Of a DNA stretch of 64,000 bases, positions 11,878 through 47,533 are shown in pieces (the first letter of the stretch is position 1; every line of letters starts with the position of its first letter). Origin of the DNA: Octopus vulgaris (Eukaryota). Below the pieces are notes generated by a model. That model did not search any database. It was not told the DNA's origin and saw nothing but the letters and a program-made list of their open reading frames with translations. A program made the translations under genes and the position numbers. Where the stretch lies: positions 78,864,001-78,928,000 of the forward strand of contig OX597819.1 of assembly GCA_951406725.2 (NCBI GenBank), given 5' to 3'.

Positions 11878-12684
11878 TCTCTCTCTATATATATATATTT
11901 CTTTATTGCCCACAAGGGGCTAAACATAGAGGGGACAAACAAGGACAGACAAAGGGATTAAGTTGATTACATCGACCCCAGTGCGTAACTGATACTTTAT
12001 TTATCGACCCCGAAAGGATGAAAGGCAAAGTCGACCTCGGCGGAATTTGAACTCAGAACGTAACGACAGATGAAATACCTATTTCTATTTCTTTATTACC
12101 CACAAGGGGCTAAACATAGAGGGGACAAACAAGGACAGACAAAGGGATTAAGTCAGGTTACATCGACCCCAGTGCGTAACTGATACTTTATTTATCGACC
12201 CCGAAAGGATGAAAGGCAAAGTCGACCTCGGCGGAATTTGAACTCACAACGTTGCGACAGATGAAATACCGCTAAGCATTTCGCCCGGCGCGCTAACGTG
12301 TCTGCCAGCGTGTATGGCAGGTTTGGTAGCCTTCAACTATCACTATCTCCTCTGAGACCCTGCGGCGCAAGTTGACCAAAAATTGAGAGTATGATAGAAG
12401 AAGGCTTGCTCTTCCTTCCGTAGAAGAAAAAATTCAAATCGGACCATGTTAACACCAAAAATTATTTACATCAAAAAGGTGCTTTTTTTTTTTCTATGAA
12501 AATCCCTATTTTTTTTTACAATTTTTTGACTGCTGTGTCACCGCCATTTTTCGGTGTATTTCAACCAGAAAAATGTTCACTTAAAGAGAATAACAAGCTA
12601 CATAATGCAAAATGTTTACTTTTCAAAAATTCCAATTCTAAAGGGTTCGAAACAAACCTGAGCAACGCCAGGCGATACTGCTAG
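11878..12684 (+). mobile_element. Non-autonomous Helitron with a nested SINE B dimer
   Basis: 3' end: hairpin CCTG-a-GC-aac-GC-CAGG (12657-12672), then CTAG (12681-12684) followed by T; candidate 5' end A|TC at 11877/11878 (less certain). Confidence 0.65.
11897..12309 (-). mobile_element. Young tandem dimer of SINE family B (Meta-domain-like)
   Basis: 11897-12080 and 12087-12309 are nearly identical and retain their CpGs. Confidence 0.92.
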
Positions 12685-22991: not shown

Positions 22992-23243
22992 GTTTAGGTT
23001 ATTTCTCTATAAGAGCTGACAAGACATTGCTGTAATACAGGGGTTAGAATTTTTTTCTTTCCTAAACTTTTTCACTGCTTGGTCAAAACAGAGAAGGGTG
23101 GTACCCTGGACACCCCTCTGAAGAATTTGAACTTGGAATATGAAGAGCTGAAAGAAATGCTGCAAAGCAATTTGTCTGATGCACAAATGACTCTGCCAGC
23201 TCACAGTCCAATTAAAAACAACGATAATAATAATAATAATAGT

Positions 23244-23760
23244 GTTATCATGTACATTGTTTTGTCTTGGTATAAAAGATGGGCTATAGCAAATATTCTG
23301 CTCAATACCACAGATTTGCTTGTCAGTTGTTTGACCTTAATCAGTTGAGCATGTCCCTTAGTGGCTGACAATATGTGCATCTCTGATCACGAGCGGAAGT
23401 AGTGGGGGAGCATCATAGCCATGTGTTGAGAGGGATTTTGTGGAGTTTGAATAATTCACCTCTGGAAACATAGGTGTTTCGTTCAACATCCTTAAACAAC
23501 CCTTATTCAAGGACCTTTTGAGCGGGATGGGTTACTCGACCTGAAGAAAATTCTAACTGGGCCCCACCTGCAAGGTCATGTGCTGTTTATCTTCATATGA
23601 GATCACCATGTCGCGCACATATGGTTGTGATGCATGTGCCTGGTGTACCCTTATCAGATGGGTAGTCATGATGGGTATATTGGGCTTCGTATATTTTACC
23701 CCAGTGTCACTTTGATGGCATGAACTGCTCTCTCACTCAATAATAATAATAATAATAATA
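23244..23760 (+). mobile_element. 5'-truncated retroposon with a (TAA)n tail inserted into a (TAA)n tract; possibly the 3' end of an R4/Dong LINE
   Basis: (TAA)nTAGT on both sides (ending 23243 and 23762); Dong/R4 elements are known to target TAA repeats; the clade is an inference. Confidence 0.6.
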
Positions 23761-44840: not shown

Positions 44841-45162
44841 TGTATACAAATATATATGTGTGTGTGTGTTCATTACATGTATGAGGTGTGTGGGTGGGTG
44901 TTATTGGGGTTCTGTCTAATAGGACTGCATGCAGTAGAGGACAGCAGCATGGTACTAAGTGTTAAATCATGAAAAACTGTGACTCATGCTGCAGCAGGTT
45001 GACAGGATCTGGAGACAACCGAAAGCTGTCGCTTTTATTAATAATAGTAGTAATAATAGTAACAACGATGATGGTGGTAATAATAGTAACAATAATAATA
45101 ATAATAATAATAATATTTGTTGTGCAAGATTTTTTATGTGAAATAGTATGTTGAAACAGATA

Positions 45163-45468
45163 TTGTTATATTTTGGAATGGTCATTTTGCCAGTTTAGCC
45201 AATAAAAACACATGCACTATATATTTGGTGTTACTTTGCTTCAGTGTTATTTATTTTTTACATTAAACTTAATCTTATTTCAGCCAGAGTTCTTTCGTCA
45301 CAAAGGACCACTGATGAGGTCACAGGAGTGTGACGAAAGAACTCTGGCCGAAATAAGATTAAGTTTAATGTAAAAAATAAGTAACACTAAAGCAAAGTAA
45401 CACCAAACATATAGTGCGTGTGTCTTTATTGGCTAAACTGGCAAAATGACCATTCTGAAATACAACAA
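45163..45468. repeat. Long inverted repeat: 140-bp arms, 26-nt spacer (inverted Penelope-like pLTR structure)
   Basis: 45163-45302 is the reverse complement of 45329-45468 with 9 mismatches, all transitions. Confidence 0.95.
45305..45350 (+). ncRNA. Minimal type I hammerhead ribozyme motif with an intact core
   Basis: ggacca-CUGAUGA-G-GUCACA-ggag-UGUGAC-GAAA-gaac-UC-uggccg; predicted cleavage after C45344. Confidence 0.8.
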
Positions 45469-47533
45469 CAACAATAATAATAATAATAACAATAATCCTT
45501 TCTACTGTAAGCACAAGGCCTGAAATTTTGGGAGAGGGAGATAGCCAATTACATCGACTCCAGTGCTCAGCTGGTACTTATTTCATCAACCCTAACCCTA
45601 GCCCCAAAAGATGAAAGGCAAAGTTGACGTTGGCACAACTTGAACTCAGAGAATGTGAAGATGGATGAAAACGTTTCTGCCAGTAATAATGATGATGATC
45701 CTTTTTACTATAGCCACAAGGCCGGAAATTTTAGTAAGAGTTATGGCACAATGTCCAAGTCCTTCATATAGTTACCCACATTATACCTCCTCACCTGTGG
45801 AAAGTGAATAAATCTTGGCCTGTCTGTCTTAAGTTTGAAGTCATGATCAGCACATTAATCTTCGCATAGTAATATATTATTATGTAGGTTGGGAGTTGTG
45901 TATATAAATAAATGATATGGACGAGGTGTTTGAGTACTACAATTGTTTCAAAACCACATTGGATGTATGTTACATAACATTATGAATGTCCTGTAATCAT
46001 TCCAGTGTACTTCAGGTACATGCAGGATTTGTAGTACTAAATGACCTTTTCCATCCCATTTATATGTAGATTTGATTATCGCATTATAAGCAGCCTTTGT
46101 TGCTTTCAAAACAGAGTTGTATAGTACCTGTCGTCTTATTGGAATTTTCTGTCTAATCTTGATATGGAGTGAACTGTATTTGATGCCTTGGTCAATAAAT
46201 TTATTGATTGAGTCATCTGTCTTCTCTATACTTATTTTTATGCTTGAGACAAACAAACTATGTCTTACCACAATATCTTAATTGATCCTTTTACATATGT
46301 GTGTGTATATTTATTTGGAAACAGTTACAAAATTTGTTTATATTTGCTCAGACAACAATATTAGCGAAAGGATAGAATGTGATCTAGGTTAGACAGAATT
46401 TCATTGGTCAGTAGTAGTCCTGAGAGGTCGCATGTTTGCCTGGTGAGCTTCATTGGTCTTAGGGTACTTACATATTTATGGAATGAAATTTGAATATCAC
46501 CATTAGCTCAAACTGCCTATCTTCATTTAAACTTTCATTGCTATCCTAACTCCAGGATAATACCACAGAACTTTGTTCTTATCTTCCTTGATAAAGAGTC
46601 TGAGCTCAAAATATCAGTGTTTCCTTTCCTCTCATCAATTACACATATATTTTCCTACTATTGCATTTATTTTGGATTAATTATTGCCATCGCAACCCTA
46701 CACAATTTCCTTTGATTTCTTTTTTGTTTTCATTTTACTTTTACTCGTTAGATCTCTGTGAGGAAAGTTGTCTAGCACCAGTCACTAAATATTCCAGATA
46801 TATCAGGTAGTGTTTTTGTGTGACTGTTAACATCAATTTGTATGTGTCAGTGTCAGGTTGACCATCTGTGTGTGTGTGTGTGTGTTTGTGATTGTTTCTC
46901 TTAATATGTTTATGCATGTCTGTCTCGTTTCGTGTGCTTGCCTGATTCTGTGTGTTTGTCTAAGTCTCTTTGTATGCTTGCCTATGTTAGTCTCACTCTT
47001 ACTTTCTCTCTCTTTCTTTTCTCTCTCTCTCTCTGTCTCTCTCTCTGTGTATATTTGTGGTGGGAGAAGACAAAGCTTCAAACTGAAAATCAAAATCTAG
47101 CGAGTGATAGGAAAGAAGGAAAAAGCTGGGTGGTGGGGTAGGGTGGAGAGAACAGTTGTAGGAACCTTTAAAAGAGGGTGAAGGTGAGTGGATAGGAGGA
47201 AAAAGGAAAAGAAATGTTTGTGTGTGTGTGTGTGTGTGTTGTATAAGGATCACAAATCAATGATGTCTGATCAATAATGGCTAGAGACCATTGATTAGCT
47301 TCCATGTATTGCTGTACAGTGTATAGAAGTTATTTCTTCAAGTATTTCCCCATAGGGATTTTTAAAAGCCATTTTATGCAGTTAATGTTATCTATCTTGT
47401 ATTGTCTCAGCTTTCAACTCTCTAGAACAGACCAGTGGTGGAGATGGTGGTGGTGGTGGTGGTGGTGACTGGATAGTGGGGGGTGTTAAGTGGTGGAGGT
47501 GTCGTGGTGCTAGAGAGAGAGACATACTGCAAC

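What the first reader, a model, noticed from the sequence alone, without database searches (positions are those of the whole stretch)
45163..45468. Palindrome with 140-bp arms and a near-canonical hammerhead at its centre
Seen: arms 94% identical (9 transitions in 140 bp). The 26-nt spacer plus the start of the right arm spell ggacca-CUGAUGA-G-GUCACA-ggag-UGUGAC-GAAA-gaac-UC-ugg. The left arm is an inverted copy truncated inside stem II. Known: PLE insertions often consist of a pLTR preceded by an inverted truncated copy, and pLTRs carry minimal hammerheads. Inference: in a read-through transcript the 140-bp hairpin and the ribozyme fold are mutually exclusive, so the inversion would silence self-cleavage while creating a long dsRNA substrate for ADAR or Dicer, which is relevant given the extensive A-to-I editing in coleoids.
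Basis: partly seen in the sequence, partly recalled or inferred. Interest (0 to 1): 0.74.

Follow-up and report, generated by a model that had tools for sequence, protein, structure and literature searches.

The report
Folded-back octopus Penelope retroelement stump
The palindrome is real, but it is the short mirror-image stump that a Penelope-type jumping gene leaves on insertion, one of thousands in this octopus genome; the only surprise is that the family's most multiplied recent copies have changed a core letter of the hammerhead motif that this older copy still keeps, so the likely ribozyme may have become dispensable.

Summary
Confirmed: 140-bp arms, 131/140 matches, 9 transitions, 26-nt spacer, hammerhead-shaped motif at 45305-45349. 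The unit is larger than reported (45112-45468): the left copy carries about 48 more bases, the Penelope 'tail'. It is a 5'-truncated, head-to-head insertion of a Penelope-like element (PLE) family with over 3,000 motif copies; a full copy has a 1,312-residue RT + GIY-YIG frame between two hammerhead-bearing pLTRs (Nematis-like linker). Breakpoints vary, so it is not a MITE; 45 of 46 inverted pairs have the tail on one arm only. The layout is published (PMC8557442, PMC3846280), and this scan noted it before in other octopus PLE families. The long hairpin does exclude the ribozyme fold in silico (33 kcal/mol), but the motif probably cannot cut alone anyway (non-palindromic loop 3, extra G), and no transcription or editing of this locus was shown. 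Possibly new: core position 9 is A in older copies (25 of 26) and here, but C in 2,916 of 3,180 exact copies, including a copy with an open frame. This is a natural test of whether PLEs need their hammerhead.

The parts
45112..45302 (-). Inverted copy of the PLE pLTR 3' part (element positions +18 to about +208, counted from hammerhead C3), 5'-truncated at the 3' strand of stem II
   Evidence: BLAST to natural copy L031, 95%
45112..45159 (-).
   Evidence: Same sequence follows +160 in many copies and runs on into the ORF in L167 and L170
45300..45468 (+). Direct copy of the pLTR (element -11 to +157), ending at the family's short 3' end (about +160)
45300..45302 (.). Head-to-head junction with 3-nt microhomology shared by both copies
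   Evidence: gap -3; same junction in 2 other insertions with unrelated flanks
45305..45349 (+). Minimal type I hammerhead motif: stem I 45305-10/45345-49, core 45311-17 (A9 = 45317), extra G 45318, stem II 45319-24/45329-34, GAAA 45335-38, non-palindromic loop 3, predicted cut after C 45344
   Evidence: sequence; fold; layout as in PMC4209133
45446..45448 (+). Start codon of the element ORF (element +135), truncated here after a few codons
   Evidence: L170: C3 at oriented 428, open frame with first Met at 563
45078..45111 (.). (AAT)n target microsatellite, left flank
45469..45496 (.). (AAC/AAT)n target microsatellite, right flank; a target-site duplication cannot be told apart from the repeat
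   Evidence: (family D5)

Best explanation
This is a short head-to-head insertion of an endonuclease-bearing Penelope-like retroelement in an (AAT)n microsatellite, likely made when the element's GIY-YIG/RT protein cut both target strands and copied element RNA twice, once from each of two fixed start sites about 56 nt apart. Shown: family identity, two preferred 3' ends (+160 and about +216), one-sided tail, variable junctions. Inferred: both cDNAs stopped early (+18 and -11) and were joined through a 3-nt microhomology, giving the palindrome; the arms then drifted neutrally (6.4%). The hammerhead is the ordinary pLTR motif carried along. In a read-through RNA it would be trapped in the long hairpin, but this is an accident of where the copying stopped, and the motif is predicted to be weak even without the arm.
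For: Copy number: 1,122 first-look candidates, and 40 scored loci at 95-100% identity, the window's own included; 3,393 exact copies of a 3' motif. Protein: natural copy L031 has an open RT + GIY-YIG frame upstream of the same hammerhead plus an inverted partial copy. Pfam RVT_1 (E 0.0025) and GIY-YIG (E 0.0023-0.0025) are both below their curated cut-offs; the best homolog is an Octopus vulgaris RT protein at 93%. Full-length pLTR-ORF-pLTR copies exist: L167 and L170, a 1,312-aa open frame with a hammerhead on each side. Geometry: 46 distinct head-to-head pairs in loci L001-L146, 45 with one short (about +160) and one long arm; one tail-to-tail case. In the first 100 hits, I counted by eye 21 minus/plus pairs within 5 kb, spacings 120-4,538 nt, all different. 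17 of 30 loci picked by the 3' motif have an inverted partner. Arms of young pairs are 0-0.2% divergent over 2 kb. Literature: PMC8557442 (inverted 5'-truncated copy plus one-sided tail), PMC3846280, PMC11167929 (both strands cut and extended; tail = stretch between two RT start sites).
Against: Pfam scores are below cut-off, and the clade rests on motif inspection, not a tree. No target-site duplication or empty site was seen. The two-cDNA mechanism is inferred; PMC3846280 instead proposes self-priming on an antisense template. The tail here (about 56 nt) is longer than the 30-40 bp in print. The pairs were partly chosen because they were pairs, so their frequency is not an estimate. The exact junction recurs in 3 insertions, so breakpoints are not fully random.
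Confidence: 0.92

Rival explanations
1. The inversion is a functional switch that silences self-cleavage and makes an ADAR/Dicer substrate in a host read-through transcript.
For: With the left arm, stem II pairing falls from 0.56 to 0.0 and forcing the hammerhead costs 33 kcal/mol; the arm takes over once the RNA passes 45340. A hairpin with 131 Watson-Crick pairs and 4-5 G-U pairs would form on either strand. dsRNA from such repeats is a general ADAR substrate (own knowledge; only a search listing was seen).
Against: The geometry is a by-product: of 46 pairs, 24 hold the whole motif in both arms, 17 hold it in the loop, 2 are like this one and 3 lack it. The arms decay neutrally, 4 of 9 differences at CpG. 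Loop 3 self-duplex is +1.4 kcal/mol versus -4.8 for palindromic hexamers, and single min-HHRs showed no cleavage in vitro (PMC4209133), so there is probably little to silence. No host exon was identified near it.
Confidence: 0.06
2. A MITE or foldback DNA transposon with fixed terminal inverted repeats, the hammerhead being a chance match.
For: Long inverted arms in an AT-rich site; the Rfam hammerhead score is weak; stems show no covariation within the family.
Against: The same sequence is the UTR and ORF start of an RT-endonuclease element. Copies are nested 5' truncations with variable junctions. The junction occurs 3 times in 2.8 Gb, with different outer ends.
Confidence: 0.01
3. Same element, but the palindrome arose by self-priming (fold-back) of one cDNA or antisense RNA rather than by two target-primed cDNAs.
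For: Proposed for rotifer PLEs (PMC3846280). The left copy stops exactly at stem II, a natural hairpin, and this junction recurs 3 times.
Against: Simple fold-back copies one strand and does not by itself explain why the other arm ends at a different fixed site in 45 of 46 pairs; spacers range from a few bases to kilobases.
Confidence: 0.2

Closest known systems
Insertions of endonuclease-positive Penelope-like elements with inverted 5'-truncated pLTR and one-sided tail (PMC8557442; PMC3846280)
   Same: Head-to-head inverted copy, tail on one end, pLTR overlapping the first ORF codons, microsatellite target, C-terminal GIY-YIG, N-rich stretch in the ORF
   Different: Tail about 56 nt rather than 30-40 bp; this octopus family is not among the octopus PLEs named in the supplement places I saw (Naiad and Hydra). 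Repbase and Dfam were not searchable.
Minimal type I hammerheads of metazoan PLE pLTRs (PMC4209133)
   Same: CUGANGA core, extra base before a long stem II with G10.1-C11.1, short stem I, vestigial stem III; paired motifs on opposite strands 100-700 bp apart already reported
   Different: Extra base is G (consensus H); loop 3 is not palindromic; most family copies have C at position 9, and about 1,370 also have U at position 17
Nematis clade of PLEs
   Same: CX4CxxC linker followed after only 7 residues by the cysteine before GIY, as in Nematis_C4, and a similar end of the endonuclease
   Different: No phylogeny run; Neptune has a much longer linker, Poseidon none
PAc (Poseidon of Anolis) in vitro system (PMC11167929)
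   Same: Two RT start sites inside the ORF 5' end defining the tail; hammerhead near the ORF start; AT-rich targets
   Different: Here the start codon lies 135 nt downstream of C3 rather than inside the hammerhead; a different clade
Non-LTR retrozymes (bioRxiv 10.64898/2026.07.22.740005)
   Same: PLE-derived hammerhead units; a few loci of this family form short tandem arrays (L036, L105, L106)
   Different: This locus is a single inverted stump, not a tandem array

Membership tests
EN+ Penelope-like element (family level) | Single ORF with PLE-type RT and C-terminal GIY-YIG endonuclease linked to the repeat | tested here: met
   L031 and L170 frames; Pfam RVT_1 and GIY-YIG hits below cut-off; RT homologs
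EN+ Penelope-like element (family level) | pLTRs flanking the ORF as a partial tandem, with hammerhead in the pLTR | tested here: met
   L167 and L170
EN+ Penelope-like element (insertion) | Inverted 5'-truncated copy at the 5' end with variable breakpoint | tested here: met
   46 pairs; 21 different spacings
EN+ Penelope-like element (insertion) | Optional tail at one end only | tested here: met
   45 of 46 pairs; window 45112-45159
EN+ Penelope-like element (insertion) | AT-rich or microsatellite target, TSD variable | tested here: inconclusive
   Microsatellite flanks seen here and in most copies; TSD not separable from the repeat
Nematis clade | Short CX2-5CxxC linker plus CCHH motif | tested here: met
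   By eye against the alignment rows of the PMC8557442 supplement
Nematis clade | RT groups with Nematis in a phylogeny | not tested
   No reference sequences available to the tree tool
Metazoan PLE minimal hammerhead | CUGANGA, GAAA and UH core with G10.1-C11.1 and 6-8 bp stem II, short stem I | tested here: met
   Window copy; not met at position 9 by most family copies
Metazoan PLE minimal hammerhead | Palindromic 15.2-16.2/loop 3 allowing a dimer helix III | tested here: not met
   AGAACU in old and young copies; self-duplex +1.4 kcal/mol
Metazoan PLE minimal hammerhead | Extra nucleotide between 9 and 10.1, consensus H | tested here: inconclusive
   Extra base present but G
Metazoan PLE minimal hammerhead | Stem covariation or excess conservation within the family | tested here: inconclusive
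   Stems invariant; old versus young majority differ at 2 of 45 motif sites and 14 of 124 flank sites, Fisher p = 0.24
Metazoan PLE minimal hammerhead | Self-cleavage | not testable with these tools
   Needs in vitro assay
MITE / foldback DNA transposon | Fixed ends and fixed internal structure across copies, defined TSD | tested here: not met
Non-LTR retrozyme | Tandem units each with a hammerhead | tested here: not met
   One complete motif at this locus; the palindrome matches nothing else in the window

The most novel reading that the evidence does not exclude
This octopus PLE family is a natural loss-of-function series: the ancestral A9 hammerhead (kept in this stump) was replaced by a C9 and then a C9+U17 version in the lineages that went on to make over 90% of the recent copies. 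That would show in a genome that PLEs spread without, or better without, self-cleavage.
Probability: 0.5. Interest if true: 0.48.

Novelty: new member of a known kind. Interest (0 to 1): 0.27.

Why it matters
The locus itself is an ordinary transposon relic. Two family-level facts have value. First, the one-sided tail in 45 of 46 inverted pairs ties the two RT start sites measured in vitro for another PLE to genome insertions; earlier notes of this scan reached the same idea. Second, what hammerheads do for PLEs is stated to be unclear (PMC8557442), and here the conserved A9 was lost in the most amplified subfamilies, including a copy with an open frame. Natural A9, C9 and C9+U17 variants allow a direct cleavage comparison.

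Tried and rejected
Expression: no RNA holder listed. Contigs of runs only guessed to be RNA covered the repeat parts and one 193-nt piece into the right flank; this cannot show transcription, strand or editing. One search listed no A>C at 45317 and no C>T at 45344 in 4 runs. Position 45317 lies too near the stretch end to trust, and short contigs may be dropped, so I draw nothing from it about other animals. Host gene: 62 long frames in the window, mostly simple repeats; 4 of them were scanned against Pfam with 0 hits, so host-gene context is unknown. The nine transitions as an editing scar: rejected, they are genomic, split across arms and strands, and 4 are at CpG; 9 of 9 is a mild excess over 72 of 128 in other pairs (p = 0.006), unexplained but post hoc. 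Rfam miRNA hits only reflect the hairpin. The tree of 171 copies was poorly resolved (23 changes of the A/C label versus 47 shuffled), so polarity rests on the older subfamily, not on the tree. My first clade guess, Neptune, was dropped after reading linker lengths. A paper search for kinetic data on A9 substitutions found none relevant; that A9C harms cleavage rests on my own knowledge of the G12-A9 pair and on the general statement in PMC3088659 section 8. The Lünse et al. paper on PLE hammerhead dimers was not held, and one supplement file of PMC4209133 could not be searched; either may list C9 or non-palindromic variants. The search for octopus + Penelope + hammerhead gave 5 papers, 4 listed, none on this family by title. 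A sequence look-up of earlier findings returned nothing.

Full report
Observation. The inverted repeat is as described: arms 45163-45302 and 45329-45468, 140 nt, 94% complementary, 26 nt apart, with nine differences, all transitions. The centre folds far better than shuffles (z -16.9, 0 of 200). The hammerhead-shaped motif starts at 45311 (C3) and has a 6-bp stem II and a 3+2 bp stem I. Rfam sees it only weakly (Hammerhead_3, E 0.37, below gathering).

Family. The window lies in a 2.8-Gb genome. The right copy has 1,122 first-look candidates; the 40 scored loci are 95-100% identical, the window's own included. An exact 29-nt 3' motif occurs 3,393 times, with 0 for the reversed control. Following copies upstream leads to a GIY-YIG endonuclease frame on the same strand and to L031, where an open frame with RT motifs and the endonuclease precedes the hammerhead and an inverted partial copy abuts the 5' end. 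Both Pfam hits are below their curated cut-offs. The closest protein is an Octopus vulgaris RT-domain protein at 93%, which is my basis for calling the host an octopus. L167 and L170 are full-length pLTR-ORF-pLTR copies; L170 has a 1,312-residue open frame starting 135 nt after C3. The endonuclease linker (CX4CxxC, then 7 residues) resembles Nematis rather than Neptune rows in the PMC8557442 supplement; this is by eye, without a tree.

Anatomy of the locus. Counting from C3, the right copy is element -11 to +157 and the left copy is +18 to about +208 reversed, so the insertion spans 45112-45468. The extra 48 bases on the left are the family's tail. Copy 3' ends cluster at +157 to +160 and at about +207 to +216 followed by TA repeats. 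The junction has a 3-nt overlap. Both flanks are (AAT)n-like, so no TSD can be called. Both arms share one sublineage letter (45364), and each has private changes, four at CpG. This fits one insertion followed by neutral decay.

PLE or MITE. In loci L001-L146, which were partly chosen as pairs, I found 46 distinct head-to-head pairs and one tail-to-tail case. Breakpoints range from inside the tail to almost 3 kb upstream. In 45 of 46, one arm ends near +160 and the other carries the tail; the exception (L139) runs into a full-length tandem. In the first 100 of 2,916 hits, I counted by eye 21 minus/plus pairs within 5 kb, all with different spacing. In 30 loci chosen only by the 3' motif, 17 (13 of 26 distinct insertions) have an inverted partner. 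The window's exact junction occurs 3 times in the genome, with unrelated flanks and different outer ends: a mild microhomology hot spot, not a fixed element. The MITE reading fails.

Mechanism. PMC11167929 (parts 1-2 of 4 read) shows that a PLE protein cuts and extends both strands of AT-rich DNA and starts reverse transcription at two sites that bound the tail. The simplest reading of the 45 of 46 asymmetry is that each cut strand primes one cDNA, one at each site, and the two truncated cDNAs are joined head to head. This is inferred. PMC3846280 (passages) offers self-priming on an antisense template as an alternative. PMC8557442 (passages and supplement parts) describes the same inverted copy plus one-sided tail.

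The hammerhead. PMC4209133 (parts 1-2 of 4 and a supplement search) defines PLE minimal hammerheads with a long stem II, an extra base before it and a palindromic loop 3. It reports opposite-strand pairs 100-700 bp apart, and no cleavage by a single motif. This copy meets the core but has G as the extra base and AGAACU in loop 3, whose self-duplex is +1.4 kcal/mol against -4.8 for palindromic hexamers. A second family in the genome has the standard palindromic loop and a different stem II. With the left arm present, stem II pairing drops from 0.56 to 0.0 and the ribozyme fold costs 33 kcal/mol.

Position 9. Among exact 32-nt matches, position 9 is C in 2,916, A in 201, T in 59 and G in 4; A is 50 times commoner than the other transversion, so it is a lineage state. 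In the group with a GAAG loop II, 87 of the first 100 of 322 hits have A (counted by eye). An older subfamily picked by a flanking motif, independent of the hammerhead (30 of 55 hits fetched, 4 dropped as truncated or rearranged), has A in 25 of 26, with median divergence 7.3% against 3.0% for A-type and 1.8% for C-type copies with the GGAG loop. So A9 is ancestral and C9 is derived and most amplified. A further subfamily with U at position 17 has 1,373 exact copies, 99 of the first 100 with C9, and its inverted arms are often identical over kilobases. All 14 long copies checked carry C9, including L170. Caveats: A-type and C-type samples were chosen by exact match; A also turns up inside young C clades; the motif is not significantly more conserved than its flanks (2 of 45 versus 14 of 124, p = 0.24); and the harm of A9C is from my own knowledge, since searches found no kinetic data. 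Every hammerhead listed in the PMC8557442 table that I read keeps A9. PMC11167929 found hammerhead mutants did not affect insertion in vitro, and PMC8557442 suggests hammerheads may be dispensable or parasitic, so the pattern fits an open question rather than contradicting print.

Earlier scan notes report the same architecture in other octopus PLE families, in this genome and others, including the two-start-site idea. I had the pair statistics before looking; they agree but are not independent support. None of the 8 notes shown mentions the A9-to-C9 change.

Verdict. A real feature and a new member of a known kind: a dead, roughly 360-bp inverted PLE stump. The regulatory reading is unsupported. 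Interest 0.27, carried mostly by the family-level loss of A9.

Noticed in passing
G000 genome-wide; L180, L181, L191, L200, L203: A second, unrelated repeat family with a standard minimal hammerhead: extra U, 5-bp stem II, palindromic loop 3. No protein link was found in these loci.
   Followed up: partly
L036:3437-5545; L105:953-1685; L106:957-1925: Short tandem arrays (periods about 326, 248 and 340 nt) of the hammerhead-bearing pLTR, retrozyme-like; their copies carry A9, though these loci were fetched through A9-biased searches.
   Followed up: partly
family copies, element -50 to -70: Many copies begin 50-70 nt upstream of C3, at a motif resembling a YY1/initiator site (recalled, not tested); possibly the transcript 5' end.
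   Followed up: no
family pairs L027, L051, L054, L063, L074, L107, L129, L136, L142: Tail-bearing arms often stop at element +107 to +116, about 100 nt from the outer start site; L054 and L074 share an identical junction at different loci.
   Followed up: no
window 45481-45732: High-copy SINE-like repeats directly right of the insertion (two related 5' ends, 45481-45529 and 45684-45732); they resemble octopus SINEs from recall.
   Followed up: no
L167, L149-L164: The element ORF has a long asparagine-rich stretch upstream of the RT, recalling the N-rich inserts of rotifer PLEs (PMC3846280).
   Followed up: no
L032:170-919: A different GIY-YIG-like frame with a longer cysteine linker, probably another PLE clade, beside an insertion of this family.
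   Followed up: no
window 11896-12270: Two tandem 191-nt copies (96% matches) of a SINE-like unit.
   Followed up: no
window 23013-23345 (+): A frame with a protein-like stretch that may be a host exon; no Pfam hit.
   Followed up: partly
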